Below are positions 3,274-57,841 of a stretch of 64,000 nt of DNA, piece after piece; positions within the stretch are counted from its first letter, which is position 1, and each line of letters opens with the position of its first letter. The DNA comes from an uncultured virus (IMG/VR IMGVR_UViG_3300005827_000008) (taxonomy: Duplodnaviria > Heunggongvirae > Uroviricota > Caudoviricetes): IMG/VR virus record IMGVR_UViG_3300005827_000008; one strand, given 5' to 3'. The notes beneath the pieces were generated by a model. It had not been told where the DNA came from and did not search any database. It was given only the letters and a program-made list of their open reading frames with translations. A program made the translations under genes and the position numbers.

Positions 3274-4410
3274 ATGGCACACGAAGAACAACACCAACAA
3301 GAATTGACATATTTCAAAATGAACATGTTGCAAGCGGAAATTGAAATGCAGGGAATGATTGCAGAAAACAGACAAAGAGAAATGTTAGGACATGTCCTTA
3401 CGTATTCTGAAAAGGATTTTAAAGATTTGATTGAAAAGCATGGAATTCACCATAACCAATTTCCGTTTGCAAAACACTAGAAGCACAGAAATCCCTAAAG
3501 AACATCAATTAAGGTGCGAAGGTTGCGGAAAAATGCTCGATATGCGCGACCCGTCAATTTTGTTGCATGGATGGATTGAGGGCAACGAAATAGTTTGCTA
3601 TGACGATGACCAGATACCATATTCATCAAGTAAAAAAATAGGCGACACCGTTCAATGGACTGCCGATAAAAAACCAATAAACCTGAACTGAGCGACTAAC
3701 GCATCAATACACACTATAAATCAAAACAACATGAACAAAGAAACAAGACAATTTATTTGGGGATTGGTGCTGCTACTGGTTTGCGGTATTGGTGTGTCTA
3801 TTCATTTGAATAACATAGCAAACGGGACGTGGCCGGGCGGCATCAATTATCTTTATTCTTTCCTGTTTTCAATAGTAGGGTGTATTGCGGGATTTTATTA
3901 TGTGATAAAAAACACGTTGTAATCAATGAAACAACAAAACGAGAATACCCCCGCTATAAGCCAGTTTTTTATCGGGCAAAAAATATCTTCTATTTATGAA
4001 GCAAACAAAGGCTATACAGTGGTTGATGTTGATTCAAAGCAAGACAGAATTTTACTCAGGCAAGATGGAATCGAAAAGCCGCAATGGTTTACCTTATCCG
4101 AACTTACAAAATAAACAGCCTTTAACCAATGACAAGCGAAGAATTTAAAACAAAAGTTGAGTCTATCCCAGGCCAACAACTTACGGAAATGGCGCAAGCT
4201 GCAATTTCTGAACTATGCAAAACGGGTGGGCAAAGTTTTACAATGTCAGCTCCCCCAAGCATACAAGATACTGATATAATTTTGTCGGAGGTTGTTAGAA
4301 GGTTTGAGGTATGGAAACCAGTTGGATGCCAGCATAATTGGTTGAAGTCTCACTCAAATCACATGCTTTATTGTGGAATCTGTGGCAAATACAAACCCGA
4401 AGGTAGCTAA
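3274..4410 (+). CDS. Cluster of small hypothetical genes (3274-3480, ~3440-3691, 3731-3922 two-TM, 3926-4114, 4129-4410)
   Basis: Co-oriented ORFs with A-rich translation-initiation regions. Confidence 0.55.
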
Positions 4411-5682: not shown

Positions 5683-5800
5683 TAATTTTGTACCACTAAC
5701 ATAGTGAAGGATGTTAAGTTTCAATAGGCCGTATTTCTCATTCATATTATACGCTACCAGAAGCCCCGCAGTCCTTCACCTGTTGGGGCTTTACTTTTTT
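5683..5800 (+). promoter_or_regulatory. Promoter plus structured leader/terminator (element B)
   Basis: TAATTTTG at 5683; GTGAAGGA (5704-5711) is complementary to the loop TCCTTCAC (5772-5779) of the AAGCCCC/GGGGCTT hairpin with a T-tract. Confidence 0.6.
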
Positions 5801-5811
5801 AATCAAGTTTT

Positions 5812-7033
5812 ATGAGCAAAACAAACAAGCTAATCCCAATACGAGGCTCTATACAGCCAATGTATTACTACTCAAAGGGTATGGTGTATTATGCTTCTGG
5901 AAACTGTGTAGTGTACTCGTGTGCTGCATCAATGGACGAGGTTATTAGTATTTTTGACGGCAAAAGGAGCCTTATGGGCATGGGGTACGAGTATGTGTAC
6001 CTTAACCTTACCCCAGAAGCGCAACCGCCCGGATATTTAATTGAAAGGTTTGTTGAAAAAAATCGCAACCGATTCTCTTTTGATGCGACTAAAACATTGG
6101 ATTATTTTGGAAGCAGGCTTTTAAATATTCTTAACAATAAATTACAGGCTACATGAGCAACCCCCTTCCCACAACAGACGAATTGGCTTTAAAAAAGGCA
6201 AGAGAAATAATTGACAAATTCAATGAGTTCGATGTATTCTGTGAGGCTTGCGTAATGGCAGATTATATGGTTGGCGAAATTTTGAATATTGGGTTAATAA
6301 TGTATTCACATGAGCCTACTCGAAAGTTCTGGGAGCAAGTCAGAGAATATGTAAAGGTAATTCATGCAAGTGACGGTAAAAACTGGTAAACAAAAACTTT
6401 ATGAGCAACGAAATAAGCAACAATAACTTGCCCGTTGAATATCTGACAGTAGATGAAATAGTGTCAAAATACGGGGCTTTATTTACCGAAAACGAGGTAA
6501 ACGAACTTAGAAAAATTGATATTGTAAAAAACCGTAAAATTTTGGACACAAACCCATTAATCCCAATGATGCTGATAAACGATTTAAAGGCATGGTTTCC
6601 GGCATCTACCCCACCCAATGAGCCGGGCTGGTATATATGCGAACTAAAGAACGGTGATAAAATAAAAGTCCCGCTTGCACACACAATGTCTGGCAGCTTA
6701 GTTTGGGTTATACCAGATTCGAGCCAAGTAGTTAAATGGAGAGAGTTTTAACCCCCACTATTATGCACGAAGAATTAATTAACAATATCAGAAACATAAA
6801 ACAAAGGCTTTTAATTTAAAAACGAAATGAAATCATTTGTAGAACACAAAATCGAAGAAATTTACAATGTTGCCATAAAACTTGGAGTAGAAAAAGCAAC
6901 TGATATGGAAAAGGATTTATTTAAAAAAGCACTAAGGCAAATTGCAGTAGCAGCTATTGATGAAGTAAGAGGTAATATTGGTCAGTTGCTTCACGAAGAA
7001 AGTAATAAATACACTAATGGAAACGGTCAGTAG
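5812..7033 (+). CDS. Four hypothetical genes (5812-6156, 6153-6389, 6401-6751, 6827-7033)
   Basis: Co-oriented ORFs, one with an ATGA overlap. Confidence 0.6.
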
Positions 7034-7043
7034 CCTTGCACAT

Positions 7044-7385
7044 AACGTGTTTTCGCTTGCCGTCAGGTGGGGCAATCGAAACACTAAGTTGTCAAACCAC
7101 CACCGAACTTTAATTGAAAAACTGCACTTGGGTTTAACGCATAACCCCCACTTGTGGCAAACGAATGTTGTGCGAAGTGTTTTATTATGATACAATACAA
7201 AGTTTTCAGAATTGTTGGCAATGAAGAACTACCTGACGGAGTGCTTCGCCAAATTATTGAAGATGCAAGTTTCTCTTGGTACGAAAGCATAGAGGAAGCA
7301 TTTCAAAGAATAAAAGAAATAGGAGATGATTATGTTGATTACACTGTTTTGCCTGTTTTGCGGATGGATTAACATTTCGCACAAC
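7044..7385 (+). mobile_element. Integron-like gene cassette 1 (5' hairpin plus gene 7187-7372)
   Basis: AAC at 7044; arms TTCGCTTGCCGTCAGGTGGGG / CCCCACTTGTGGCAAACGAA; GTTGTGCGAAGTGTT (7167) is mirrored by AACATTTCGCACAAC (7371-7385). Confidence 0.75.
7187..7372 (+). CDS. Cassette-borne hypothetical protein, 61 aa
   Basis: ATG just after the GTT core; TAA overlaps the terminal inverted repeat. Confidence 0.65.
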   Translation: MIQYKVFRIVGNEELPDGVLRQIIEDASFSWYESIEEAFQRIKEIGDDYVDYTVLPVLRMD

Positions 7386-7400
7386 TTGCGTATATGTATA

Positions 7401-7429
7401 ACTAACTAGTATAACACTATATTGTAAAT
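7401..7429 (+). repeat. Post-cassette conserved motif ACTAACTAGTATAACACTATATTGTAAAT
   Basis: Exact 29-bp copy at 10936-10964 and a partial copy at 49191-49205, each 15 nt after the cassette-terminal AAC. Confidence 0.9.
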
Positions 7430-7439
7430 CAAATAATTT

Positions 7440-9125
7440 ATGACCACAGATAAAACAAAGAACGAGGGGGTGCCAATGACAGCGAAAGAGATTCGTGACC
7501 AGTCGGGCAGATTTCTTGCCCAAGTAGAGTTATATTGCAATAAAATCAGGTGGGAATTAGGTAATCTTGATGGGTTGGAAGATTGGCAAGTAATGAAAAT
7601 TGAGGATTTTTCTAATTCGGCTATACAGAGGTTTAAAGAGTTGCAGGAACTTGTAAAAATAAAGCCGGAAAATTGACCGCTATGTACATATCAAAAAGGA
7701 TAGAGAAATAATAAAAAACGAATATGAAACAGTTCACTATTTTAAACAAACAAACAGAATTATCAGCCCCAACTGCATTTGCATGGGGTGAGGTTCGCTA
7801 CCTTATTGACGATGGATTAAACGTCTGGCAGGTTTTCAAGGGGGATGGAGAAACTGTAATTGAAAAAAATCCAGACCTATACGTGCAGTTTGATAATACC
7901 TCGCAAGAAATGAACCGACTGCAAAAGCTAAAAGCGGATTACCATAAAATTGAAAACGGAACCCACGGATTTTCCAAGGACGGAAATGTTTCCAAGGATG
8001 GGATTAAACCACCTTCTGTGTTTAAGTAGTATGGCACCTCCAAAATGCGAAAACTGCGGAAAATTCGCTCCAATTAGACTTATGGATAATGTTTTTATCC
8101 GTGTTTTATATGGGCAATTTTCAGTAGATCGGGAACTTTTTTATCACAGAACATGTCCACCCAAAAAGCAAAAGTAAAATGGAAAAGATTTTAGTAAAAA
8201 CAAATACTGTTGGCGGGATGGAAATTGATGGGTATCCGGTTACGTGCCAGACAAAGACGATTAGAGCCGAACTTGATTTAATTCACGAAGCCAATACAGA
8301 ATTTTACCTTCCAGACACATATACATACGAATTAATTGAGTCTAACTTTTGGGGTAAGTATGTAGCAAAAATAGTTTACACACAAAATAAAAATAATATG
8401 TACAATGTAACATGCCTTGTCACAGGCAAAAGTGACAACCTAAGAATGCACGCCATGAGAAGCGAAAAGGGCGAAATGATAGGATGGGTTTTTCTTCACG
8501 AAAGCCTATCGTTAGAAGACATTGAAACAGAAGTTTCGTGGAAACATAAAATCAGTGCTGGAAATATTGCTATTACAAAAACCGGATTAAAATCAACCAA
8601 CTAATAAATCCAAATGAAAAAGAAAACTGTAGTTATGCAAGTTTCTTTGCATGAAATAGCGGCAGACATCGCTATTAATATCCAGTCGGGCAAAATTGAT
8701 TTATCAAAAGATACGCTACGTGGGATTGCTGATAAGATAGGGAGAAAAGGGTGTTCCCCTCAGCAAATCAAACACCACCTACAAGGGCTTGTTACATTGG
8801 GCTTTTTGTCTATTGTAGGCGGGAATATTATCTATATTGCGCCAGTGCAAGAAAAACGTAATCCAGAAGATTTTAAAAAGTGGAGGGACTATTTAGCCAA
8901 TAACGCATGAGCAGCAATACAACAACAAACCCTGCATCGAAACAAGAATTTGTTAACGGACGGCTTTATGGCCAATTAGTGAAGCGAAGGAAAGATGGAT
9001 TTTGCCAAAAGTGTAACGGTGAAATTAAGAAAGGCGACCAAGTATTAGTGGTAAAGGAACTGGATGGGTTTACAATAAAACCCATAGGGTTGTGCCATGT
9101 AGAGTGTTTTAAAGATTTTAGTTAA
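7440..9125 (+). CDS. Hypothetical gene cluster (7440-7676, 7724-8029, 8179-8604, 8614-8910 winged-HTH-like, 8907-9125 Zn-ribbon-like)
   Basis: TLRGIADKIG..SPQQIKHHLQGL resembles a wHTH; the last ORF has CxxC...CHxxC. Confidence 0.55.
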
Positions 9126-9181
9126 CGATAAAGTTTTGTATGTAAATGCAGGAAGCCTTTGGCTAAGTTGTAATATATTTC

Positions 9182-9886
9182 ATGACCACTATTATACCAT
9201 ACAACCTAATAACCACACACCCAGACGTACTTCATTATTGGGTTAAGTTAAAATGTTATGGTATAGTTTACAATTTCAACTTTCGCAATTTAGCCGGGAT
9301 ACTCAGAGTTAGCCCCACAACAGCCGGGAAACACTTTAAGGTTATGCAAGAACTTGGGTTAGTGCATTTTACTGGCAAAAACTTAGTAGTTACAGGTAAT
9401 AAAAAACTTTCACAAAAATACAGATTAGTAAAAACAAGGGTATTCAGGAAGAAATCTGCTCAGAAAATGGCATTTTTCTCCCTGGTTATCGGTGACAACA
9501 TAAAAAAACAGTCCAAAAGGATAAGTAAAAAGCTGAATATAATAAAAAGGCTTAGGTCGAATAGAAGAATAACCTCACAGCAGTACCGTGTAATACGTGT
9601 AAATGGTGGAGAGGCAGCGTTTGAAAACTCTTTTAATACTAAAACTATGTTGTCAAATAAAAAAATAGGTCGTATGCTTTACAGGGCACCCCGTACAGCA
9701 TCGAAGTACCAGAAGGCAATGAAAGACCTTGGATTGATAACGAAGCGGGCAAACCTGCGCTTAGTTGCAAAAAACGTGGGTTTAAAAAAGTTTGCTTGTG
9801 AGGTCGGTAGGAACATGATTGTTATAGGTAGTGACCTTTACAGACAACTTCCGAACTACATATCAGTACATAGCCTTAGTAGTTAG
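9182..9886 (+). CDS. Basic protein with two wHTH-like segments (possible replication initiator or regulator)
   Basis: NLAGILRVSPTTAGKHFKVMQELGLV and KIGRMLYRAPRTASKYQKAMKDLGLI. Confidence 0.5.
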   Translation: MTTIIPYNLITTHPDVLHYWVKLKCYGIVYNFNFRNLAGILRVSPTTAGKHFKVMQELGLVHFTGKNLVVTGNKKLSQKYRLVKTRVFRKKSAQKMAFFSLVIGDNIKKQSKRISKKLNIIKRLRSNRRITSQQYRVIRVNGGEAAFENSFNTKTMLSNKKIGRMLYRAPRTASKYQKAMKDLGLITKRANLRLVAKNVGLKKFACEVGRNMIVIGSDLYRQLPNYISVHSLSS

Positions 9887-9951
9887 AACAAAACTGAACA
9901 AAGGGGTTTAAAACAAAAAAAAGAACTAATTTTACAAAATAAATAAGCGCA

Positions 9952-10580
9952 ATGGAAACAGAAATTACAAAAAGCGAATACGGTAAATTTTTCGCTAAGT
10001 ACGGGGCGGTACACCGCAAGTCAATACACTCAGACTTGTTGTCATATATAAGAAAAACAAAAGGGGGTGTTACTTTTGTTTTTAACAAGCAAACATTAGG
10101 AGGCAAAAATGTAATATCGGCAACCGAAGTCCATCCCGGCAGCAGTGAGGTTATTTTTTCTCTAATTGAGTTTTACAACCTTGCTGATCTTGAACAACTT
10201 TTAGACCGGAGTAGATTAATTAAAGGGTTAAAAATAGCACAATGGGACACTTCACAAAGCGGTTAGAATATGCGCACATGGTTAAAATGCGCATAAAAAG
10301 CAACAAAGTTTTACAAAAGGTTCAATCAGATATGCAATCCGGCATACCCATATTGTACGAAACTTATATGCAGTTGATGCTACAACTACCAGAAATATTC
10401 CAGAAAAACGAACTGGTTAAACTGGTTCAATGGCAATCCATCCCCACTGAAATACACAAGGGATATGCTAAAGAAGTTGAAGAAATGGCCAAATCAGGAC
10501 AATTAACCAATACAACTCAGATGGAAAACCTGTGGCTTAAATGGTATCTAAAGTATAACGTGCCGTTTTATGCGGTGTAA
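9952..10580 (+). CDS. Two hypothetical genes (9952-10266, 10242-10580)
   Basis: ORF track; the second gene's TAA forms the TAAC junction of cassette 2. Confidence 0.55.
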
Positions 10581-10920
10581 CGCCCTGCGGCTTTGCTGTC
10601 GGGCGGGACTTTTGAAAACGAATTTATCAACTTAGTAAAAAAATAAAATATGAAAACGAAAACATCATTAAACCAAGAAAACCCGCCTGCGGCAAAACCG
10701 ATGTTAGGCGATGCCTTTCGGTGGGACGAAATAGCTTATGACTTTACAAAAGAAAAAGGTCAAATTGGGGCAATACTATTTTGTGAAGAAATGATTGCCG
10801 ACAAAAAGAAACAGATTAACGAACTGGATTTTTACGATGGTGAACGAGTGTCTGCGTTACAAAATAGTATGATGGATTGGGGTGCAATTCGGAGTAGGGT
10901 GGAGAAAGGTTTCGCCTAAC
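10579..10920 (+). mobile_element. Integron-like gene cassette 2 (5' hairpin plus gene 10650-10919)
   Basis: Arms CGGCTTTGCTGTCGGGCGGG / CCCGCCTGCGGCAAAACCG; GTTAGGCGATGCCTTTC (10703) is mirrored by GAAAGGTTTCGCCTAAC (ends 10920). Confidence 0.8.
10650..10919 (+). CDS. Cassette-borne hypothetical protein, 89 aa
   Basis: Starts in the hairpin loop, reads through the right arm and GTT core, and stops in the terminal TAAC. Confidence 0.65.
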   Translation: MKTKTSLNQENPPAAKPMLGDAFRWDEIAYDFTKEKGQIGAILFCEEMIADKKKQINELDFYDGERVSALQNSMMDWGAIRSRVEKGFA

Positions 10921-10978
10921 TTGAAGACATAAGCGACTAACTAGTATAACACTATATTGTAAATAAAATAAAGGTAAG

Positions 10979-12263
10979 ATGGATAATCAGGAAATACAAA
11001 ACAAGATAAGAAGTATTGAGAGTAAAATATCTCATCAGAAATCAATAATTAAGGTCGCTGAGTCTGATATTGATATTTTGCGGAGAGAGTTGTTTTTGAT
11101 TAAATGGGTGAAAATATCGTGGAAAGACCTAGAAAGTTGGCTAAAAACAAATAGACCAGAAAATAACTATGAAAAAAATCCCATTGTTTGCGATGGTTCT
11201 TTAAACGAAAGAACAAGTTATTGCAAACTAAATAGCGAAGGAAAGTTGCAGATAGGCGCATTTAGCACTACTGACTTTTTTGAAGAAGGTAATGATAGTT
11301 TGTATGTAACCTATAATTTTGAGCCGTATCGTAGCGTATGAAGCAGCAAGTAATAACCCGCAAGGAAGCACTAAAAGGAATAAAGTTTGCGCAAGACCGT
11401 TACAGGTGGTACGGAGGCAGGGTGCGCTTTGGGTGGATGCGCCCTGAGGACTTGTTAAAAAAATCTACACAAGAGCAGATGAACGAACACATGGCGGGCG
11501 TGGTATTGGATATTGCAAAAAGAACACTACCCAAGATAAGTGTTGATTTAACCGAACAAGACGTAAGGCAGATTATCAAAAACACCCCGAAAGACGATAG
11601 TATTCTTAACAGCGTTTACGCCTCACCTGAATATTGGGAAGAATTTGACAGGGTTGTGAAGCAGCAATATTTGAAATAAAAGCGTTATTTTTGTCTTAAC
11701 AGAATTAAGCAAACATGAAAGAAAATATAGAACAAATCGAAAAGCCCTGGGATACCAATTTTCTGAGGGGAAAAGTTGAAATTGATGATTTTACAATTGA
11801 CATTTCTTTCTATGCCGGAGCTAAATCAAGGAACCATGAAATAGAAAAATTGCCTTATCTTGTGCCTTTTTTTGAGCGCATGAAACTTGAATTATGCAAA
11901 GAATTTATGTCGCAAGCTTTTGAGTCTAAGATAAAAAAACTAAACATACCAGAAGGGCTTACTGGCCCTGCGGATGAAAAACTTTTAAAGGTAATACAAT
12001 TCAATAACCTATCGGGGCAATTTGTTTTACTATGCAAAGACCCGATATGTAATCATATTTTAAGCCTTACTTTTAGGGACTTTACAACCGGGGGAGGCGT
12101 GGGTAAAGATGCCCTACCTACAAAATGGGGTCACGTTTATGGAGTTGCGGATTGTTATTTTGCTATTGTATCTCCGCGTATAACCCCACACGGGCTTGAT
12201 TATTTTGATTTATCTCTGGACTATAAAGGGTTTGATGTGTACGACTTAGATATAGAGTTTTGA
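10979..12263 (+). CDS. Three hypothetical genes (10979-11341, 11338-11679, 11715-12263)
   Basis: Co-oriented ORFs; a promoter box precedes 11715. Confidence 0.6.
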
Positions 12264-13219
12264 AGATGAAACTAATTAACAATCAAATACTCGTAAAGCC
12301 TACTTACACCGAAAAGGTGGGTTCTATTTTTATTCCCGAAAACGCTGAGTCAAAAAAGTACGCCACGGTAAGCGGTGAAGTTTTGGCTATGCCAGAATCA
12401 CCAGTTTATTGTCACGGAAACCCCATTTCCTTACAGGTAAAGGTAGGCTTTGAAATTCAAGTTGGGGATACTGTATGGTTCCACTTTTCCTGTGAAGGGG
12501 ATGCAAGAGAAGAAGGTAAGTATATCGGAGACAATTTTCTGGTAAACTACCGGGACTGCTATGTTACAAAACGTAGGGGACACATAATCCCACTAAACGG
12601 GTTCGTATTAGGAAAACCAGTTATTAGCGACTTTTTAGAACAATTCCCGGCACTAAAAGCAATTGGGTTCAGAAACTCAGACAAGTTTGTTGATGCGCAC
12701 GATTACCGGAACAGGTGTATTGTTACGCACGTAGGGCAATTAATACCCGAATACAAGCACGGAATAGATAATGAGGTTATACAGCCTGACGACCCATCTA
12801 TAAAACCAGGGGATGAGCTGTTACTCACCCCGTATGTGGGCAATGAACTTGAAAAACTTGACCAAACATTAATCCCCGGACAGCCTACATACAGGTTTCA
12901 GAGAAGGGATATTATTGGCAAAATAGTAAACGAGCAAATAGAAAGCATTTCAGACAGGTTGTTGATAAAAGCAGATTCAGCAGAAAAGAAAATAGGCAGT
13001 ATAATCATTCCAGATATTGCGCAAAAACCCACAGAAGTACAAACCGGAACCGTGTTAAGTAGGGGGTATTTTGTAAAAGAAAAGTATTCAAAGGTTTATT
13101 TCCTAAAAAGCAGGGCTATGAAAATCCTGTTTAATGGTGAGGAATATTTCTCAGCAAGGGAAAGGCATTTACTTGGTTCGGATACAAATTCACCACTATT
13201 TGCTAAGTTGAGCGTCTAA
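12260..13219 (+). CDS. Co-chaperonin GroES-like protein with three tandem domains
   Basis: Repeated GroES-like starts LINNQILVKP, IPLNGFVLGKP and ISDRLLIKA; GSIFIPENA and GSIIIPDIAQKP mobile-loop motifs; IQVGDTVWF and IKPGDELLL. Confidence 0.75.
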   Translation: MKMKLINNQILVKPTYTEKVGSIFIPENAESKKYATVSGEVLAMPESPVYCHGNPISLQVKVGFEIQVGDTVWFHFSCEGDAREEGKYIGDNFLVNYRDCYVTKRRGHIIPLNGFVLGKPVISDFLEQFPALKAIGFRNSDKFVDAHDYRNRCIVTHVGQLIPEYKHGIDNEVIQPDDPSIKPGDELLLTPYVGNELEKLDQTLIPGQPTYRFQRRDIIGKIVNEQIESISDRLLIKADSAEKKIGSIIIPDIAQKPTEVQTGTVLSRGYFVKEKYSKVYFLKSRAMKILFNGEEYFSARERHLLGSDTNSPLFAKLSV

Positions 13220-15337
13220 AACCTTCTCTTGAAGTTTCCCTTCGTTTTTAAGTTGGGTGTTTTCTAGGGATACAGCACCTTGCTCTTGTGTCATAGCAAG
13301 TTGGGTGGCATTGGCATCCGCTTTGGCCTTTTCTTCAAGTGCAAGCTGTTGTTGCCGTTGCGCTTCTGCTATTGCTTTGCCTTCTGCCTCTTTTGCTTTC
13401 AAGTATCTGGCAATTTCAGACTTAGAATCCATCATTTTTATGGCAGCAAAATCACCTAATCCAAGTCCTTGAAAGTTTTGTGCATTTTGAAGGAAAGCAA
13501 ACTGCATTTCTTTGTATTCTGCCCGGTCTTGCGGTGTTACTGCATCGCTCTGATCTATGTGGGTATTCAGTTCTTTCAGCGACCATTCCTTTTGAAACTT
13601 AACAAACTCTATTTCAGCATTGCTAAATTGCAATACCTTGTCCGCTTCCGCAAGACTGAATAGCGTTCTTCTTAAATCTGTACCTTGTTGAATAATCCGG
13701 TTTAAAAAGATAAGGAACCCGTTGTAAAAGGTTGCTGTACCATAAGACGCTTGGTCTATAATCCCTTGCTGCTCTTTAAATGAGCCTTGGGGTGTTTGTT
13801 GGCCCAAAGCAGCGTCCGGGGCAAATGCTATTCTTTTTGTTTTTTCCTCCAAACGCCTGATCTCTTGGTTCAGCGCATTTACGGCCTGACCGTTTACATT
13901 GAGGTCAGCAACACTAAACACATTTCCTTTGCCATAAACACTCTCGGCTTGGTCAATTTCCATTTCCAGATAAACGAAGTTCATGGTGGCAATATTCGAT
14001 AATACCTCTTTTGGAGAAGTGTTGTCGGGCAGTTCGCCTCCGTGCATTATCAAAACAGAGCCTTTGGCTTGATTTATAAACAGGTCTAATTTGGCCTCCA
14101 ACCCATCAATCCTGTCTGATATTGAAAAGAGTCTGTCAACTATTGATTTGTTTTTGCCAAAGAACATATTTGGCCTAAAGTCAATGAACCTTGGCATAAT
14201 GTATGACTTGTTGCGCTTTCTTTCGGTCATGTACTTTTGGATGCCAAAGTTTTTTATGTATGCGTTTCCAATATAGTCACATACATAGTTTTTCTCCATC
14301 CCGTTTTCGTATCCCTTCCACCATGCTTTTACCACGCCAACAACCGGAACTCCGTTTATCCACCTCCAATACGGGAACCCGGAATTGCCTATATAAGATG
14401 AAATAAAGGGGTATCCAAGGTTTCCGGCAGCACTGGCAGAGTTTGCTTTTGCTATCTGGTTTAGTTGCTCTTTTTCGGTGTCAGTAAAAGAATACCTTGC
14501 AAAAAGGTCTGGGATTGTCATGTAGTCAACAACACCTCCAAACTGGTCGTCATCCCCAAAGTCGTCCTTTGAGTTTGTGTCGTAAATACATTGGTGCGGG
14601 GCGTAAATATCCATTACGGTGTCATCACCTTCCACACGCACCTCCACACGCATAAACGCACAAATATTACCGTACAATATTAGCTTCATAAAGGACTTTT
14701 CATAGTCTATGGCAAAAAGAAAATCCCTTGCCACGCTTGTAAAGATTCGCTCCACTTTGTCCATTGGGCGTTCTTTAAGGTAAGATATTGCTTGTTCTTC
14801 TGACTGTATTTCTTGTCCGGGAATAGGTTGTAAATTAACGTCAAGCCCCGCCTGTTTGAGTTCGCTTGCAAGGATTGCCAAGCTTACCCTTGCGTTCATG
14901 TCGGATAAAAAGTCGGGGCTATTGTCTTTTACATTGACTCTTTTATGCAGGTTTTTAACAAAGGCTTCGTACATGAATCCTGATCTGTATTCAATAATCT
15001 CAAATATTGACTGCCCATTGATAAGCCTTGTTGGTAGTTGGCTGTTATTTACGTCCTTAACCCAGTAAGCATAAGTTATATTATTCTGGTCTCCAAAGTA
15101 ATACGACATATTCCTGATAAACTTATCAATAACCCTTCCGGTGGTTGGGTTCTGCTTACCACCTTGCGGGGAGCCGTTGGCTTTTGCGACAGTATAAGCC
15201 GTTTCTACATTTGGATTATACTGTCCGGCCACAAACCTAACATTGTTTTTGTACCAGTCCTCGTTCTTTTCTACATTCCACTGGTCGGGCTGCACAGGGA
15301 CAAAGGTATCTGGGATTGCGTCTGTTGGTATGGTCAT
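13196..15337 (-). CDS. Portal protein (probable)
   Basis: ~713 aa next to the terminase; helical, with a Q/A-rich coiled-coil C-terminus typical of podovirus portals; likely ATG at 15337. Confidence 0.7.
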   Translation of the reverse strand: MTIPTDAIPDTFVPVQPDQWNVEKNEDWYKNNVRFVAGQYNPNVETAYTVAKANGSPQGGKQNPTTGRVIDKFIRNMSYYFGDQNNITYAYWVKDVNNSQLPTRLINGQSIFEIIEYRSGFMYEAFVKNLHKRVNVKDNSPDFLSDMNARVSLAILASELKQAGLDVNLQPIPGQEIQSEEQAISYLKERPMDKVERIFTSVARDFLFAIDYEKSFMKLILYGNICAFMRVEVRVEGDDTVMDIYAPHQCIYDTNSKDDFGDDDQFGGVVDYMTIPDLFARYSFTDTEKEQLNQIAKANSASAAGNLGYPFISSYIGNSGFPYWRWINGVPVVGVVKAWWKGYENGMEKNYVCDYIGNAYIKNFGIQKYMTERKRNKSYIMPRFIDFRPNMFFGKNKSIVDRLFSISDRIDGLEAKLDLFINQAKGSVLIMHGGELPDNTSPKEVLSNIATMNFVYLEMEIDQAESVYGKGNVFSVADLNVNGQAVNALNQEIRRLEEKTKRIAFAPDAALGQQTPQGSFKEQQGIIDQASYGTATFYNGFLIFLNRIIQQGTDLRRTLFSLAEADKVLQFSNAEIEFVKFQKEWSLKELNTHIDQSDAVTPQDRAEYKEMQFAFLQNAQNFQGLGLGDFAAIKMMDSKSEIARYLKAKEAEGKAIAEAQRQQQLALEEKAKADANATQLAMTQEQGAVSLENTQLKNEGKLQEKVLDAQLSK

Positions 15338-15352
15338 AATCAAATGTTTTGA

Positions 15353-15382
15353 CAAATTTAACCAATTTTTTAATTAAATTTG
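15353..15382. promoter_or_regulatory. Back-to-back promoters for portal and terminase
   Basis: CAAATTTA (15353-15360, TAAATTTG on minus) and TAAATTTG (15375-15382, plus). Confidence 0.7.
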
Positions 15383-15403
15383 CCGTAACAGAATTAAGCA
15401 AGC

Positions 15404-15790
15404 ATGATTGATGAAGCACTTTTAGAAAAGCTGACAAAGCATAAAGACGAAAACGTGCGGGAACTGGCAGGTTGGGCGTTAAAGATAATCAAAACACCGT
15501 ATTACGATGGGTATTTGGCCGATCTAACCCAAATGCTTTTCATTGACAAAGAAATACAAGATTCCCCTATCAGCATAAAGTCTGCAAGCGAAGAAGATAC
15601 CCGGTTGTTTGATAAGGTGTTAAAGTATATGGTTGACCGCCCGAAAATACAGGCAAGTTTAGAATCTACCAGACAAAAACTATTGCCAAAACAGGTAGAG
15701 CAAGCACAGGCCGAAGCAACATCAACCATAGATGAGGTCAGAATGGCAATAGCGGATGAGTTCAGAAAAAAGAATGAAGGAGGGGAGTAG
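15404..15790 (+). CDS. Putative terminase small subunit
   Basis: 128-aa helical ORF immediately upstream of and overlapping terL; positional call. Confidence 0.5.
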   Translation: MIDEALLEKLTKHKDENVRELAGWALKIIKTPYYDGYLADLTQMLFIDKEIQDSPISIKSASEEDTRLFDKVLKYMVDRPKIQASLESTRQKLLPKQVEQAQAEATSTIDEVRMAIADEFRKKNEGGE

Positions 15791-18700
15791 GGTAACTATT
15801 CATATTGACGGGTTTCACGTTCCGTACATAACCCCGCCAGTACCAAAACTAAGCGAAATTGCCGGGCATAACCTGCCCCAAAAGCAACAAAAATGGATTC
15901 GCCCCGTATTCCCAAGTGACGAGGATGCGAAACTGATGCCCAAAAGCGAAGTTTTTGAAATTATAAAAACTGATTTAATCCGCAGAATAGAGGGTTATTG
16001 GTTTATGAATAATGGCGTGCCAACATACATAACTGGCTCCCATTATTTTACATTAACCCATTGGTACATGGCCGCAGTCAATAAGGATGGCTACCCAGAA
16101 TACCGAAACGCAGCAAAGTTATGGTTTTACACAAAGGACATAGCCGATAAAGACGAGAACTGTTTTGGGCTTATAATGATGTGCCAAAAAAGATTCGGAA
16201 AGGCACTTGACATAAATACACCCATTCCTACTCCTGGTGGGTGGACGATTATGAAAGACTTACAGGTGGGTGATTATGTATTTGGGGCAGACGGAAAGCC
16301 TACAAAGATTACATTTGAAAGCGGGATTCAATATAACCGGAACTGTTATAAGGTTATATTCTCTGATGGGTCTGAAATCATAGCAGATGAAGAGCATAGG
16401 TGGCTGGCATCAAACGCAAAAGATAGAGCATCTACATCGTGGTTAAGGGCAAAAAACAAAGGTAAAGTTTATCCCGAAAAGGTGGTTACCACAAGAGAAA
16501 TGGCCGAATCTATAAAATCACAGCAAGGATTTTCAAATTGGGCTATAAAAAACACATTAGAAGTACAATACCCAAAAAACGAATTAAGCATACCTCCGTA
16601 TATTTTAGGTATATGGCTTGGCGATGGAAGTTCGTCATATACTAAATTGACCAACGTAGATGCTGACATAATAGAGAGTTGGGTAAATTATGGGAAGTCT
16701 ATCGGGTTGGGTGTGGTTAAAGACCAAGATATAACGTATATGCTAACGCCCGGCAGGACTGGTGTTGGGGGCAAAAACCCATTATTATTGCGACTAAGAG
16801 GGTATGATTTGATAAATAATAAGCATATCCCGCTTGACTATTTACAATCGTCAATATCCGACAGGGTAGAATTATTAAGAGGGTTGATGGATACAGATGG
16901 GTGTAAGTTAAAACAAGCGCAGGTATTTGAGTTTTGCTCAAAAAGAGAAGTGTTGGCAAAAAACGTCAAACAACTGGTTGAATCGTTGGGGATGAAATGC
17001 ACTTTAACGGAAAAATACAATAAAAAAGTGCAGAAGACCTACTATTACGTAAGGTTTGGTTCTTATAAAATAAACCCATTTAAACTAAAAAGAAAGTCTG
17101 ATTTATTTGGGGTGTCCAATAGGGTCAATACCGTTTTAGATTATAGGTATATTGTTGATATTGTCCCCGTTGAAACAAGACCCGTAAAGTGTATTCAGGT
17201 TGACAATGATAACCACACATATTTATGCGGGGAAAGCTATATTGTAACACACAATACTGAGTACGAATTAGCTGATATGTACAATAAGGCAACCAGAGGC
17301 GGGATTAGGATGCTAAAGGGGCTTGTAATTGAGGATAAAGATTGCCTTTTCGGGATGCAATCCCTCACTGCAACGGAAGCAAAAAACAACCTTTTCAAAA
17401 GTAGGCTCATGCGCTCCCACATGAAGATACAGAGGTATTTGAAACCGGAATCAAATGAAACTGGCTCAAAAAGAGAAATTGTCGGGGAACTCACGTTTAA
17501 AGGGACAAATATTGGGGGTGGTAAATACAAGGATGCTTTAAGAAACGTCATTGACCATAGGCCAACACTCGTAAGCGCATACCAAGGTAAAAGACCGAGG
17601 CAAATATTTATTGACGAGCCGGGGTCTATTGAGGAAATGGACTTAGAAAACTGGTGGACTACGGTAAAAGAACAGCTTGCGCTTGGTACAAAGGCTTTTG
17701 GGAAAGCATTTTTGCCTACCACATTAGAAACAATGACACCAAGGGGCGCAGATGCTTTTAAGAAAATATGGGAAGAAAGCGACCCAAACAAGAGAGACCC
17801 AAACGGAAGAACAACGTCTGGGCTGTACAGGTATTTTAAAGCACAATATCTTGGCAGGGAGGATTTTGTAGATGAATACGGGAATGACCTTATTGAAGAA
17901 GCTAAACAATTTAGGGCTAACCAACTGGAAAACGCAAGCCCATCCCAACAGCAAAAGATAAAAAGGCAGTACCCCGAAACAGTAGAAGAAGCGTTCGGGT
18001 TGATAATAGGCGGTGTTTGGGAGGACGATGTAAAAGAATCGCTTGTTGCAGACGAGGCTTTATGCGCAAAGTCCATAGTAAAGTACGTTACATTGCGCAT
18101 GAGCAACGGGGCTATTGTAGAATCATTTGCCCCAAAAACAGACGAAGCAGCAATAAAGATTCTGGAAACGCCCCTACCCAATACAATTTATTCTTTGGGT
18201 ATAGATAGCGCAACCACAGACGATGAAACTGGTGATAGCGGAGGCTCTAAGATTGCGGCAGTCGTCACCAAGGGTGCCGGGGAGGGTGCCTGTATGTATT
18301 CGCCCACAATTGCTTATTCTGAAAGGGCGCTAAACAAAGAGGCGTGTTACCATAAAATATTCCTTATAGCAAGGTATATAATAGATAAAGGCGGGATACT
18401 CAAAATTACCGGGGAGATAAACGGAGGGGGCGCAGATTGTTTTAGGTATTTATGTAACAGAGGATTAAAGCCGTATATGACCGGAACCCCAAAGCAATAC
18501 GCCAACTCGTCTGCCGGGGATAAGACCGGGCAATTCTGGCTTTATGTCGGTCCTGATTTGTTGAAATTCCTTCACGGGTTGGGTAACAGGTTTTTAAGGT
18601 TTTGCCATGAACACGGCACAGGAATAAAAATACTTTCTGTGGCACGTTCTTTAATAAAATACAAGGGAGGCTCGAATGAAGACGAGGCAAGTGCGTATTT

Positions 18701-18809
18701 AATATCATTATGGAACTTCCGGGATTTTGATAAGTTTGAGAAAAAAGCCAAAAAAGCCCCGGTGAAAATGCCTAAGTTTAATCAGGACACAGGAATGTGG
18801 GAGGGTTAA
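15756..18809 (+). CDS. terL: Terminase large subunit containing an intein
   Basis: GYWFMNNGVPTYITGSHYF N-terminus, Walker A QKRFGK/T, Walker B IFIDEPG, nuclease YSLGIDS. Confidence 0.9.
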   Translation: MSSEKRMKEGSRVTIHIDGFHVPYITPPVPKLSEIAGHNLPQKQQKWIRPVFPSDEDAKLMPKSEVFEIIKTDLIRRIEGYWFMNNGVPTYITGSHYFTLTHWYMAAVNKDGYPEYRNAAKLWFYTKDIADKDENCFGLIMMCQKRFGKALDINTPIPTPGGWTIMKDLQVGDYVFGADGKPTKITFESGIQYNRNCYKVIFSDGSEIIADEEHRWLASNAKDRASTSWLRAKNKGKVYPEKVVTTREMAESIKSQQGFSNWAIKNTLEVQYPKNELSIPPYILGIWLGDGSSSYTKLTNVDADIIESWVNYGKSIGLGVVKDQDITYMLTPGRTGVGGKNPLLLRLRGYDLINNKHIPLDYLQSSISDRVELLRGLMDTDGCKLKQAQVFEFCSKREVLAKNVKQLVESLGMKCTLTEKYNKKVQKTYYYVRFGSYKINPFKLKRKSDLFGVSNRVNTVLDYRYIVDIVPVETRPVKCIQVDNDNHTYLCGESYIVTHNTEYELADMYNKATRGGIRMLKGLVIEDKDCLFGMQSLTATEAKNNLFKSRLMRSHMKIQRYLKPESNETGSKREIVGELTFKGTNIGGGKYKDALRNVIDHRPTLVSAYQGKRPRQIFIDEPGSIEEMDLENWWTTVKEQLALGTKAFGKAFLPTTLETMTPRGADAFKKIWEESDPNKRDPNGRTTSGLYRYFKAQYLGREDFVDEYGNDLIEEAKQFRANQLENASPSQQQKIKRQYPETVEEAFGLIIGGVWEDDVKESLVADEALCAKSIVKYVTLRMSNGAIVESFAPKTDEAAIKILETPLPNTIYSLGIDSATTDDETGDSGGSKIAAVVTKGAGEGACMYSPTIAYSERALNKEACYHKIFLIARYIIDKGGILKITGEINGGGADCFRYLCNRGLKPYMTGTPKQYANSSAGDKTGQFWLYVGPDLLKFLHGLGNRFLRFCHEHGTGIKILSVARSLIKYKGGSNEDEASAYLISLWNFRDFDKFEKKAKKAPVKMPKFNQDTGMWEG
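16203..17255 (+). mobile_element. Class 3 (Ala1) intein with LAGLIDADG homing endonuclease, 351 aa
   Basis: Starts ALDINTPIPTPGGW; ADEEHRW; ILGIWLGDG and LLRGLMDTDG; ends VKCIQVD...IVTHN followed by Thr. Confidence 0.9.
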
Positions 18810-31187: not shown

Positions 31188-31661
31188 TGGGCGGACGGTT
31201 TGGGCAGGCTGCAAAACTTGACCAACTTTCTACCCGAACCAACATCGGCAGCTTGCTTAAACCGTAGGTTAGAAGCAGTTAATTAAACGTTGTGCGTGGG
31301 TCACGTAAGATAAATTGAAAATAAAATTATGGAAAATAAAAAAATAATACCAACCACATTTAGAAATACATGCGAAGATGACGAAAGTGAATTATTTGCC
31401 TTACTATTTCTTTTAGATGTTCAACAATATGTTTATTATGATAATGACGATGACAATGATATTTTGATGTTAGAAAATCATTTAAAGTCAAAAAATATTG
31501 AGTTTGAAAAAGGTCAAAGAAATAGAAAATATTTAACAATAAATGTAAAAACAGAACAGACATACGGTGAATTTATGAGAAGCAATCCACCTATTAATTG
31601 ATTGTCAAAACAGCGCTAAAGGCGGAAGCAAGCCAAAAGGTTTAATTTATTGCTTTCTAAC
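31186..31661 (+). mobile_element. Integron-like gene cassette 3A (gene 31329-31601)
   Basis: Arms ACGGTTTGGGCAGGCTGC / GCAGCTTGCTTAAACCGT; GTTAGAAGCAGTTAATTAAAC (31268) is mirrored by GTTTAATTTATTGCTTTCTAAC; left junction is AAT rather than AAC. Confidence 0.75.
31329..31601 (+). CDS. Cassette-borne hypothetical protein, 90 aa, very AT-rich
   Basis: ORF track; lies between the terminal inverted repeats. Confidence 0.65.
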   Translation: MENKKIIPTTFRNTCEDDESELFALLFLLDVQQYVYYDNDDDNDILMLENHLKSKNIEFEKGQRNRKYLTINVKTEQTYGEFMRSNPPIN

Positions 31662-31946: not shown

Positions 31947-32028
31947 TTGCGGCTTGGAGCGACAAATGTAGGACATTTTTCCATTAAACACTTAATTAAC
32001 AAAAGTTTGACTTAAATATTGTTTTAAC

Positions 32029-48206: not shown

Positions 48207-48319
48207 TATCTTCGTGTTGTCTTTTAAGTCGTAGCAGCCTCAAAGGAATTTCATCATTTTTTGTTTATTTATAAAGGAAAGCCCCCATTTCATGCTACGA
48301 CTTAGGGGGCTACCTTTTT
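48207..48319 (+). promoter_or_regulatory. Promoter plus structured leader/terminator (element C)
   Basis: TATCTTCG near-consensus box; TAAGTCGTAGCA (48225-48236) is complementary to TGCTACGACTTA (48293-48304) in the loop of AGCCCCC/GGGGGCT. Confidence 0.65.
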
Positions 48320-49175
48320 AACGGTTTGGTGTATATGTAGTGGTGGATAAAAAAGAGATGAACTTTGATTAACAACAAAACTTCATAGAAACCACAAATG
48401 TTGAATTACAGATGAAACCACCATTACATATAAACCTTGTTACCTGCTGGTACGGTTAATTTAGTAGAAACTTAAATACGAAGAACGAAACAAAAAATTA
48501 AAATTTAAAAGCGATGGCAAAAAAGAAAACAATCTGGGATTATTTTGATGACAATATTGATTACCCAAATGAAGTAGCGCACAATCCATTACCATACGGA
48601 ACTGTGTGGCGTTACATTTCATCAACATTTTTAAATGGAATGATAAATTATGTGAAACCTATTAACTGCTTTGTGTTGGATAGATATACAGCAGATGATG
48701 AAAATGTTGGTGATAGAAATTTTACCGTATGCAACAAAGGTGAATTTGGTAAATGGCATAAATGGGAAGGAACAAAGAAAGAATTAATTAAAGCGATTAC
48801 TACTGGTGAAAAAGAAATGTATCATACCGACATGAATTGCTTTGGTGATGATATTGCTTTGCTTTCCGAAATAGAAACCAATGAAGAAGATGGTAAAGGA
48901 AGATATGTGTTCTTTTGGTTTGACTGTGATGTTTCAGATTGTTGCATAGGTAAATTTGAAACTACTGACACCAAAGAAGAGGTGGCTCAATCAATGAGAA
49001 ATTGGCTTGACAAAAGTAAAGAAGAAAATAAAGGCAAAGTAGTTGAAGAAGGATATGATAATGGAATTGTGAACTACTCCGAACTTCCTATTTCTTTTTT
49101 GAAGGGTTGGCTTAAATTTTAATTTTTTGAACCGAAATGATAATACGAAGCGATACAGTAGTGCTTGCAGGTAAC
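48320..49175 (+). mobile_element. Integron-like gene cassette 4 (gene 48514-49122)
   Basis: Arms GGTGTATATGTAGTGGTGG / CCACCATTACATATAAACC; GTTACCTGCTGGTAC (48439) is mirrored by GTGCTTGCAGGTAAC (ends 49175). Confidence 0.8.
48514..49122 (+). CDS. Cassette-borne hypothetical protein, 202 aa
   Basis: AT-rich ORF inside cassette 4. Confidence 0.75.
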   Translation: MAKKKTIWDYFDDNIDYPNEVAHNPLPYGTVWRYISSTFLNGMINYVKPINCFVLDRYTADDENVGDRNFTVCNKGEFGKWHKWEGTKKELIKAITTGEKEMYHTDMNCFGDDIALLSEIETNEEDGKGRYVFFWFDCDVSDCCIGKFETTDTKEEVAQSMRNWLDKSKEENKGKVVEEGYDNGIVNYSELPISFLKGWLKF

Positions 49176-49502
49176 TTGCGGATATAAGCGACTAACTGGT
49201 ATAACATGCTTATAAATGCTGACATTCTGGCCATGCAGCCAATAATAATAATGTTCGGGATAAAAGGTTTTCCTAACCACTTTATGACCGACAAGGGCTT
49301 ATTGCAAATAGCCCATTGCCTAAGACGAAGAACGTTGCCTACTAAGATATTGCCAATAGTTAAAACAGGGAATGGTGGCAGGTGCAGGGGATATAAGATA
49401 TATGCCAGCTTTCGCTCTTTGAGTTGGATTGAAAAAAGATACTACCCTAAGACGTTGGTGGTAGTTGGAAAGGATTGTTTACCTTTTTAGTAATATAGCA
49501 TT

Positions 49503-52013: not shown

Positions 52014-52014
52014 T

Positions 52015-57240: not shown

Positions 57241-57340
57241 ATAAAATATGTACCGCACCTCATGTAATTCAATTAAACACAGACAGTTGATATGAACGTT
57301 TCTGAACACGTGCAGTTTTTCATTCAGGAAATGAAACGCC

Positions 57341-57841
57341 TTACCGCCCCTGCTTATTAGCCGCAATCATTTCCTTAATCTGGTCAAGAGAAAGTAGGCT
57401 GTATTCGGCCTTTAACTTTTCAAACAGTTCAAGATACTTGGCATAACCAGGGTACTCATGTAGCTTTTCTTTGGCCGCTAGAGTACCTTGATCTATTGTG
57501 TTGTGTACCCACGTTTGCAGTAAAACAATGTTTTTAGGGTTTAACAGCCATGCTTTGTGGTTCTTTTTATTCAGCACATGAGCGCAATTTGACGGGGATG
57601 GATTCCTGATGGCAGTACCCGTAATAAAGCAAATGTGGGGGCGTTCAGCTATTATCTTATCGAAGACAGCCTTTTCCCCTGTCACGGTTCTTTTTTTGCT
57701 TATGGCCGTCCTAACAAGCTCTTTTACCAGTTTCCTTGTGTCAGACCTTTCCCCTTTCACCGGAATCCGGCACTTTGCGCATAATCCATCTTTTAAAGTG
57801 GACAGGCGGTTGCAGGTTGAGCAGTAGCCGGGTTTATTCAT
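57341..57841 (-). CDS. HNH-like/NinG-like nuclease (tentative)
   Basis: CFITG...NCAHVL...NIVLL...HNTID plus N-terminal CxxC pairs. Confidence 0.5.
   Translation of the reverse strand: MNKPGYCSTCNRLSTLKDGLCAKCRIPVKGERSDTRKLVKELVRTAISKKRTVTGEKAVFDKIIAERPHICFITGTAIRNPSPSNCAHVLNKKNHKAWLLNPKNIVLLQTWVHNTIDQGTLAAKEKLHEYPGYAKYLELFEKLKAEYSLLSLDQIKEMIAANKQGR

What the first reader, a model, noticed from the sequence alone, without database searches (positions are those of the whole stretch)
7381..7429. Conserved non-hairpin motif 15 nt after the last cassette: candidate attI-like docking site
Seen: after the terminal AAC the sequences are TTGCGTATATGTATA-ACTAACTAGTATAACACTATATTGTAAAT (7386), TTGAAGACATAAGCG-ACTAACTAGTATAACACTATATTGTAAAT (10921), TTGCGGATATAAGCG-ACTAACTGGTATAAC (49176) and the weaker TTGCGGCTTGGAGCG-ACAAATG (31947). 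The register relative to AAC is identical at distant loci with unrelated flanks. Inference: read on the minus strand this is a fixed site followed by G/TT and the cassette, which is the position of attI. It is either a landing pad the phage keeps in several copies or a donor attI fragment carried along with the first cassette.
Basis: partly seen in the sequence, partly recalled or inferred. Interest (0 to 1): 0.78.

Follow-up and report, generated by a model that had tools for sequence, protein, structure and literature searches.

The report
Repeated end-piece of phage gene-cassette sites
A short DNA element repeated in this phage marks the side of swappable gene cassettes where the cutting-and-joining enzyme normally docks, but the repeated motif itself is peculiar to this phage and its role in docking is unproven.

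Summary
The 29-mer is exact at 7401 and 10936 (0 expected), 36/37 nt over the wider block. A 23-nt, 96% copy lies at 49184. Only the junction-proximal 17 nt recur at 31947. I found a fifth, cassette-free copy at 3692-3733.

The "cassettes" are integron-like units of a family widespread in Bacteroidota. One hairpin arm 19-mer has 64 exact hits in IMG/VR and at least 123 in GTDB genomes.

The motif lies on the attI side. In 14 bacterial loci and 4 phage loci of this family, a tyrosine recombinase gene or a stub of one sits just beyond the same array end. The window keeps such a stub: a 22-codon ORF at 57292-57360, 51 nt after the fifth cassette. That stub-linked site lacks the motif.

The "15-nt spacer" is not a spacer. 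It resembles the arm or loop that follows the inverse core in attC-like sites. The 7386 copy is 13/17 identical to a recombinase-side site in Flavobacterium.

The 29-mer was found in no other array, phage or genome searched. It does not travel with the cassette genes, and it runs up to start codons.

Verdict: the attI-like reading is partly supported for position and polarity and unproven for function. This scan earlier noted similar docking-site copies in other phages.

The parts
7386..7439 (+). Array-end element copy T1. It has a 17-nt junction-proximal segment (7386-7402), orphan inverse-core-type boxes ending at 7406 and 7415, the 29-mer at 7401-7429, and an A/T-rich leader up to the ATG at 7440.
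   Evidence: The 17-mer is 13/17 identical to the recombinase-side site of L120. TATGTA lies at +8. No fold beyond shuffles.
10921..10978 (+). Array-end element copy T2, with the 29-mer at 10936-10964, up to the ATG at 10979.
49176..49205 (+). Array-end element copy T4. Homology to T1/T2 stops one base after the second box (TATAAC, ends 49205), and the ATG follows at 49206. It lies after cassette C4, which was inserted just past a stem-loop followed by a T-run that reads as a terminator.
   Evidence: 23 nt, 96%
31947..31963 (+). Copy T3. Only the 17-nt junction-proximal segment is shared. Its first 11 nt equal the left arm of the commonest hairpin family.
3692..3733 (+). Copy T6. A diverged copy of the box plus distal part. 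It overlaps the stop codon of ORF 3440-3691, runs to the ATG at 3731, and has no recognisable cassette beside it.
7047..7385 (+). Cassette C1: attC-like hairpin about 7047-7166, then a gene module 7167-7385 bounded by inverted core boxes (ORF 7187-7372). It is preceded by another module (ORF 6827-7033) that ends in an inverse core at 7046.
   Evidence: (I6); the same module end occurs in L002
10581..10920 (+). Cassette C2: hairpin about 10582-10702, module 10703-10920. ORF 10650-10919 starts inside the hairpin loop. The left junction lies on the stop codon of ORF 10242-10580.
   Evidence: (I21); relative L078
31661..31946 (+). Cassette C3: hairpin about 31662-31778, module 31779-31946, ORF 31805-31930.
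   Evidence: (I12, I15)
48322..49175 (+). Cassette C4: hairpin about 48323-48438, module 48439-49175, ORF 48514-49122.
   Evidence: (I7); relatives L002-L005
56785..57240 (+). Cassette C5: hairpin about 56786-56904, module 56905-57240, ORF 56928-57227.
   Evidence: (I11, I13)
57241..57291 (+). The window's recombinase-linked array end, its best attI-equivalent. It is 51 nt long, has TATGTA at +7, and lacks the 29-mer.
   Evidence: Same junction-to-ATG distance as L063 (51) and L012 (52). No significant similarity to T1/T2.
57292..57360 (+). Probable 5' stub of a tyrosine recombinase gene: 22 codons, of which the first 16 match the start of the L052 recombinase.
   Evidence: tblastn top hit, 10/16 identical, residues 1-16 on 1-16, E 0.26. 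blastp-short best of 3233 ORFs, residues 10-16 on 10-16, E 0.006.

Best explanation
The motif is the middle of a repeated 30-58-nt 'array-end element'. This element sits on the recombinase (attI) side of integron-like cassette insertions in a Bacteroidota-type phage.

Each full copy is composite:
1. 17 nt next to the crossover that resemble the arm or loop following the inverse core in the family's attC-like sites.
2. Two orphan inverse-core-type boxes, each ending in TAAC.
3. An A/T-rich leader that runs to the next gene's start codon.

Most likely the copies are duplicated, partly decayed docking ends. They mark the double-stranded partner side at which cassettes (hairpin plus gene) are joined at AA|C. 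The phage no longer makes the enzyme: its own gene is reduced to a 22-codon stub at 57292. Any exchange would therefore need a recombinase supplied in trans by the host or by a co-infecting phage.

Shown:
- The repeat itself and the exact boundary at AAC.
- The mobility of the gene modules between phages.
- The side on which recombinase genes lie in relatives.
- The stub in this window.

Inferred:
- That the element is bound or used by a recombinase.
- That the 29-mer's two TAAC boxes act as accessory or secondary sites rather than being scars.
For: 1. Four unrelated cassette modules (ends 7385, 10920, 31946, 49175) abut the element at the same base.

2. The gene modules of C4 and C2 recur in other phages at 88-94% and 80% amino-acid identity. 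Where the core boxes are kept (L002/L003 and the right end of L004 for C4, L078 for C2), homology starts at GTT and ends at AAC. AAC is therefore a real crossover point.

3. The system is widespread. One hairpin arm 19-mer has 64 exact hits in IMG/VR and at least 123 in GTDB genomes, nearly all Bacteroidota.

4. A recurrent tyrosine recombinase occurs as 15 ORFs in 14 bacterial loci. All 6 members tested carry PF00589 plus PF13495. Its stop codon lies 40-172 nt beyond the last inverse-core box, on the same side as the element. 13 of 14 rows have support of at least 10/13 from the inverted end box.

5. In phages the recombinase follows the array end on the cassette-gene strand: L055 (277 aa), L063 (147 aa, truncated) and L012 (93-aa SAM-domain stub, PF13495 E 4e-11).

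6. The window has a probable stub 51 nt after C5. TATGTA lies at +6 to +10 in 4 of 4 recombinase-linked phage array ends, against a background of 0.46%.

7. The T1 17-mer is 13/17 identical to the L120 site (background fraction 0.0007). The T4, T3 and T2 means lie at background fractions 0.012, 0.031 and 0.072. T1 against the L055 docking region: 33 of 1000 shuffles score as high.

8. The first 11 nt of T3 equal the common hairpin arm. The 17-mers are 12/17 identical (my count) to the 17-nt loops of the short sites in L017.
Against: - The 29-mer is absent from every other array examined. No match within 2-3 mismatches for two 17-18-nt windows that cover its first two-thirds, and one likely chance match for each of two further windows, in 632 kb. 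Records G001-G005 show nothing beyond the control pattern. No exact pattern hits in IMG/VR, JGI metagenomes or GTDB.
- The stub-linked site at 57241-57291 lacks the motif and is not significantly similar to it (268/2000 and 520/2000 shuffles; 478/1000 and 642/1000).
- Conservation runs the wrong way for a binding core. Between T1 and T2 the 15 nt next to the crossover are only 6/15 identical, while the distal 29 nt are 29/29.
- The distal part abuts start codons, and similar A-rich strings precede many other genes.
- Array ends in other phages are heterogeneous.
- An 8-mer 'core' test showed no enrichment at automatically called array ends: 2/41 against 11/342, Fisher P 0.41.
- The TATGTA hallmark was chosen after looking at the data.
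- The stub match is short: E 0.26 in the window-wide search.
Confidence: 0.45

Rival explanations
1. The 29-mer is a phage-specific expression signal (promoter, operator or translation leader) of the downstream backbone genes. Cassettes merely landed, or were only tolerated, just upstream of it, so it has no role in recombination.
For: - All five copies end 0-14 nt (T1, T2, T4, T6) or 65 nt (T3) before a plus-strand start codon.
- T6 has the motif without a cassette.
- Without its cassette, T4 would be the only sequence between a stem-loop followed by a T-run (which reads as a terminator) and the replication-gene cluster.
- The right part resembles A-rich strings upstream of many start codons.
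- The motif is absent from other phages with the same cassette family.
- A second promoter-like repeat pair exists at 11685 and 15374 (D11).
Against: - It lacks the host-type -7 box TAnnTTTG that marks this phage's likely promoters. 14 of the window's 91 such boxes are intergenic, and none lies in the element on the plus strand.
- The sigma-70-type scan does not flag it, and such sites are not enriched here (26 found against 28.8 expected; 10 against 20.1).
- A pure expression signal does not explain why the sequence adjoining the crossover resembles attC arms and loops and a recombinase-side site.
- It does not explain why homology of T4 stops one base after a TAAC box.
Confidence: 0.3
2. The element is a scar with no present function. 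On this reading it is a collapsed former cassette (the start of a hairpin arm fused to its own inverse-core box) plus a second orphan box, and it was copied to several loci by being co-mobilised with neighbouring cassettes.
For: - The segments between successive TAAC boxes are 21 and 9 nt.
- The first segment begins like a hairpin arm and ends like a module end of the usual format.
- An orphan module end directly after another inverse core is seen in L058.
- Two or more extra TAAC boxes occur at 2 of 15 strictly called array ends, against 3 of 118 internal junctions and 0.78% background (binomial P 0.006).
- Homology of T4 ends one base after the second box.
- Qi et al. 2023 (PMC9892861, section 3.4 read) report multiple or inverted GTTRRRY motifs at the boundaries of phage CALINs and suggest illegitimate events.
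Against: - A neutral scar would not be expected to stay 29/29 identical while the adjoining 15 nt differ at 9 positions.
- The 22 nt shared by T1 and T2 beyond the last box have no box at their end.
- The cassette-free copy T6 needs a separate explanation.
Confidence: 0.2

Closest known systems
[quoted passage not shown]
   Same: It is a non-hairpin, double-stranded site at the integrase-proximal boundary of a cassette array. Variable cassettes are joined to it at the G|TT (AA|C) crossover. Further direct copies of the core tetranucleotide lie on the integrase side.
   Different: No integrase gene stands beside the copies with the motif. There are five copies in one genome. Cassette genes point towards the site instead of away from it. 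The part nearest the crossover is the least conserved. The spacing of the boxes (21 and 9 nt) differs. No binding or recombination data exist.
CALINs and SALINs: attC clusters or single cassettes without an integrase, including those in virulent phages (Qi et al. 2023, PMC9892861, abstract and section 3.4 read; Polaribacter phage P12002L among them)
   Same: attC-type cassettes occur in a phage with no working integrase. Repeated core motifs are seen at the boundaries.
   Different: Here the end boxes are much longer (9-21 nt). Gene modules are exchanged at both core boxes, independently of the hairpins. The genes are antisense to the classical attC orientation. The associated recombinase family was identified here only by its Pfam domains.
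attG sites (Loot et al., bioRxiv 10.1101/2022.09.11.507474; abstract and sections 32-33 read)
   Same: Cassettes are inserted outside attI and attC into double-stranded genomic sites with a GWT core, singly, next to promoters.
   Different: attG sites were defined for IntI1-3 in E. coli, with a CRGM motif at +6 to +9 and 9+9 nt minimal length. The element here is a repeated, much longer sequence that shares its first 11-17 nt with attC arms.
PeSL regulatory cassettes of T4-type phages (Arbiol et al. 2010, PMC2839356, abstract read; Comeau et al. 2014, PMC4122927, search listing only)
   Same: Short conserved intergenic repeats flank small variable genes in a phage and are linked to modular shuffling and mini-circles.
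   Different: PeSLs are promoter-plus-terminator units recombined by homology. Here the boundaries are base-exact at integron-type core sites, and no promoter consensus was found in the motif.

Membership tests
Integron attI site | Lies at the boundary of the cassette array, with the cassette joined at the G|TT crossover | tested here: met
   Four different modules end in their own inverse core and meet the element at the same base. Module homology in other phages stops at that base.
Integron attI site | Stands next to the integrase gene | tested here: not met
   None of 104 ORFs scanned with PHROGs nor of 88 scanned with Pfam is a tyrosine recombinase. tblastn with 15 bacterial and 4 phage recombinases gives nothing near T1-T4 or T6. 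The only stub is at 57292, beside a site that lacks the motif.
Integron attI site | Simple site with integrase-binding L and R boxes, plus accessory direct repeats | tested here: inconclusive
   An R box is present (it comes from the cassette). The next 17 nt resemble attC arms and loops and, for T1, a recombinase-side site. Two more direct TAAC boxes follow. Similarity to the docking regions of L055, L063 and L012 is marginal: 33/1000, 98/1000 and 349/1000 shuffles.
Integron attI site | Recombines with attC in the presence of the integrase | not testable with these tools
   Needs a recombination or binding assay.
Integron attC site | Imperfect hairpin with paired R''/R' and L''/L' boxes | tested here: not met
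   The element folds no better than shuffles (z -0.66, +0.28, -0.56, -0.63). It carries only the left half. The five hairpins to the left of the cassette genes do fold (-13 to -22 kcal/mol).
Bacteroidota-type promoter (-33 TTTG / -7 TAnnTTTG; consensus recalled from the literature, no paper read here) | A TAnnTTTG box a short distance upstream of the gene | tested here: not met
   14 of the window's 91 TAnnTTTG boxes are intergenic, and none lies in T1, T2, T4 or T6 on the plus strand. T3 has one on the minus strand at 31963-31970.

The most novel reading that the evidence does not exclude
A lytic Bacteroidota phage keeps several recombinase-less copies of an attI-like landing pad spread over its genome. 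Each captures cassettes by means of a recombinase supplied by the host or by a co-infecting phage. The 29-mer's two direct TAAC boxes serve as accessory binding sites, analogous to DR1 and DR2 of attI1. Landing pads would then be portable modules that can be multiplied independently of the integrase.
Probability: 0.2. Interest if true: 0.75.

Novelty: new variant of a known kind. Interest (0 to 1): 0.5.

Why it matters
If the copies are working landing pads, one phage genome offers several entry points for host or phage gene cassettes without encoding the enzyme. That would make phages efficient carriers in the cassette traffic of Bacteroidota. Standard integron searches see little in that phylum (per earlier notes of this scan; I did not run such a search).

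The window also gives a clean set of natural substrates for testing how this recombinase family chooses its double-stranded partner:
- the stub-linked site at 57241-57291;
- T1, which looks docking-like;
- T2 and T4, which are degenerate;
- T6, which is vacant.

If the motif is only a leader or a scar, the finding is an ordinary by-product of a cassette system that this scan has already met on other DNA.

Tried and rejected
- **Close relatives with empty sites.** None were obtained. blastn of 5800-12300 against 'phages' found no match. Protein-seeded searches with 12266-13216, 9182-9883 and 10979-11338 gave no relatives. The DnaB gene gave one locus at 50% identity, without the motif.
- **Whole genome.** None is held for this window.
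- **Sequencing runs.** None was listed.
- **Rfam and tRNA.** Nothing found.
- **Sigma-70 promoter reading of TTG-N18-TATAAC.** Not flagged, and such sites are not enriched.
- **ORFs 51322-51795 and 51913-52437 as diverged recombinases.** Weak tblastn hints (E 0.099-0.97) were rejected by BLASTP (E 4.8 and 8.9) and Pfam.
- **An 8-mer docking core enriched at all array ends.** Not supported: 2/41 against 11/342.
- **Homology of T6 to the array-end region of L051.** 22/31 by eye on alignment A2, but only a 13-nt exact match by blastn-short (E 0.42), among many similar A-rich hits.
- **A 74-aa gene that follows array ends in five IMG/VR loci.** It has no homologue in the window and only a sub-threshold NUMOD4 hint.
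- **IS200/IS605-type or MITE readings of the units.** Considered and dropped once the core-site grammar and the recombinase linkage were seen.

Full report
**1. What the window is**

The window is a phage. It encodes a large terminase subunit (15756-18809), a portal protein (13196-15337, minus strand), a DnaB-type helicase (49853-51259), a RecT-like protein and a DNA methyltransferase.
- No whole genome is held for it.
- It has no DNA relative in the phage collection.
- Several likely promoters carry the Bacteroidota-type box TAnnTTTG (the consensus is recalled, not read here).
- Sigma-70-type sites are not enriched.

**2. The observation**

The 29-mer is exact at 7401-7429 and 10936-10964, with none expected by chance.
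- The identical block is 36 of 37 nt.
- A 23-nt, 96% copy lies at 49184-49206.
- The site at 31947 shares only the 17 nt next to AAC.
- I found a fifth, diverged copy at 3692-3733 that is not next to a cassette.
- The genes flanking the two full copies are unrelated.
- None of the copies folds better than shuffled sequence.

**3. What the 'cassettes' are**

The window holds five units: 7047-7385, 10581-10920, 31661-31946, 48322-49175 and 56785-57240. On the plus strand each has the same parts in the same order:
- a left junction xTAA|C;
- a long imperfect hairpin (-13 to -22 kcal/mol as DNA);
- a gene module bounded by inverted boxes, GTT... on the left and ...AAC on the right.

Read on the minus strand this is the layout of an integron cassette (G|TT, gene region, R'', L'', L', R'), except that all five genes are antisense to that reading.

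The gene modules move between phages.
- The C4 gene recurs at 88-94% identity in four IMG/VR loci. Against L002, homology runs exactly from the left box to AAC, with a different hairpin on one side and a different flank on the other.
- The C2 module behaves the same way in L078.

Both core boxes are therefore crossover points, and the motif does not travel with these genes.

**4. How wide the system is**

A 19-mer from one hairpin arm has 64 exact hits in IMG/VR. It has at least 123 in GTDB genomes, nearly all Bacteroidota.

In the bacterial loci the commonest recurrent protein is a tyrosine recombinase.
- It occurs as 15 ORFs in 14 loci, and all 6 members tested carry PF00589 plus PF13495.
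- With the arm placed on the plus strand, it lies on the minus strand.
- Its stop codon is 40-172 nt beyond the last inverse-core box. For 13 of 14 rows that box has an inverted copy upstream matching at 10/13 or better.
- The two recurrent cassette-sized ORF clusters in these loci (8 and 7 loci) are on the recombinase strand, the opposite of the phage arrangement.

In phage loci the recombinase follows the array end on the cassette-gene strand:
- intact in L055 (277 aa), and present in L052;
- truncated in L063 (147 aa);
- reduced to a 93-aa SAM-domain ORF in L012.

G001-G005 hold no PF00589 match. That search missed the N-terminal stub of L012 because it lacks the catalytic domain.

**5. The stub in this window**

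A 22-codon ORF at 57292-57360 begins 51 nt after the end of C5 (AAC ends at 57240).
- Its first 16 residues match residues 1-16 of the L052 recombinase, 10 of 16 identical. This is the best of all tblastn hits in the window, though E is only 0.26.
- In a set of 3233 ORFs from all loci, the best blastp-short hit is the same protein in the same register (E 0.006).
- The four recombinase-linked phage array ends (L055, L012, L063 and this one) all have TATGTA at +6 to +10, against 0.46% of windows after any AAC. Their junction-to-ATG distances are 67, 52, 51 and 51 nt. I picked that hallmark after seeing the sequences.

I take 57241-57291 as the window's best attI-equivalent. It lacks the 29-mer and is not significantly similar to T1 or T2.

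**6. Anatomy of the element**

*The 17 nt after AAC are not an arbitrary spacer.*
- The first 11 nt of T3 equal the common hairpin arm.
- The 17-mers are 12/17 identical (my count) to the 17-nt loops of the short R''-loop-R' sites in L017.
- T1 is 13/17 identical to the recombinase-side 17-mer of L120 (Flavobacterium denitrificans). Only 0.07% of the 17-mers that follow an AAC in the window do as well, and 0.5% of hairpin-type junctions.
- T4, T3 and T2 are weaker: background fractions 0.012, 0.031 and 0.072 for mean identity.

*The 29-mer then follows.* It starts with two orphan boxes of inverse-core type, ending at 7406 and 7415. Homology of T4 to T1/T2 stops one base after the second box.

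*The rest is an A/T-rich leader* of a kind common before start codons here.

Stacked extra boxes occur at some other array ends: 2 of 15 strictly called ends, against 3 of 118 internal junctions and 0.78% background. The junction classes are rough. Array ends differ widely between phages.

**7. Reading**

Position, polarity and the base-exact junction agree with an attI-like partner site. T1 in particular looks like one.

Against a role for the 29-mer itself:
- It was found in no other array, phage record, metagenome pattern scan or genome pattern scan.
- It is missing from the stub-linked site.
- It is better conserved than the segment next to the crossover.
- It runs up to start codons.

My weights are 0.45 for duplicated, partly decayed docking ends that may still serve as targets, 0.3 for an expression signal beside which cassettes landed, and 0.2 for functionless scars.

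**8. Known work and novelty**

- CALINs in virulent phages, including a Polaribacter phage, and repeated core motifs at their boundaries are in print (PMC9892861; abstract and section 3.4 read).
- Insertion at non-att genomic sites is in print (bioRxiv 10.1101/2022.09.11.507474; abstract and sections 32-33 read).
- PeSL shuffling is the nearest phage analogue (PMC2839356; abstract read).
- Two searches listed no paper on attI-like sites in phage arrays of this kind. I read only the listings, plus two passages of PMC8138268.
- Earlier notes of this scan describe docking-site copies with recombinase stubs and reversed gene polarity in other Bacteroidota phages. I confirmed the same pattern here independently, but those notes are not independent evidence.

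I class the finding as a new variant of a known kind, with moderate interest.

Noticed in passing
window 57292-57360: A 22-codon ORF whose first 16 residues match the start of a phage tyrosine recombinase (L052). It begins 51 nt after the fifth cassette and is cut off where the minus-strand gene block begins.
   Followed up: yes
window 10650-10919: The cassette C2 gene starts inside the loop of its attC-like hairpin and reads through the right arm and core box.
   Followed up: partly
window 48239-48322: A G+C-rich stem-loop followed by a T-run, which reads as a terminator. Cassette C4 is inserted right after the T-run. My reading of the sequence only; the terminator scan did not list it.
   Followed up: no
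window 11685-11718 and 15374-15407: A 34-nt repeat pair (85% identical), each copy with a TAnnTTTG box 21 nt before a start codon. They look like copies of a host-type promoter plus leader.
   Followed up: partly
window 31963-31970 (minus strand): A TAnnTTTG box inside the T3 element that points back into cassette C3, antisense to its gene.
   Followed up: no
window 15756-18809: The large terminase ORF is 1017 aa long. Some of its tblastn hits lie under features annotated as DnaB helicase in other phages. This may mean a shared intein. I did not test it for the window. The terminase of L013 does carry intein/Hint domains.
   Followed up: no
window 12266-13219 and 34825-42492: A 317-aa protein with a C-terminal Cpn10 (GroES) domain, and a 2555-aa ORF with no family match beyond one weak PHROG hit.
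   Followed up: no
L017 5980-9100: This IMG/VR phage joins many cassette modules through short sites made of an inverse core, a conserved 17-nt loop and a core box, instead of long hairpins. It also has an 'empty' unit made only of paired boxes and an 11-nt loop.
   Followed up: partly
L120, L151, L082, L114, L125, L127, L158 (bacterial loci): A 199-aa MerT plus heavy-metal-associated-domain protein recurs as a cassette in 8 loci of Bacteroidota arrays (7 contigs; L114 and L115 overlap). 2 of 2 members tested match both domains in Pfam.
   Followed up: partly
L026 10402-10623, L051, L060, L022, L078: A homologous 74-aa gene (sub-threshold NUMOD4 hint only) starts about 30 nt after the last cassette in five IMG/VR loci. 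Arrays therefore dock at a fixed backbone point in those phages.
   Followed up: partly
L012 437-943 and 2780-3427: HNH and GIY-YIG (SegE-like) homing-endonuclease genes lie in the same contig as a long cassette array.
   Followed up: no
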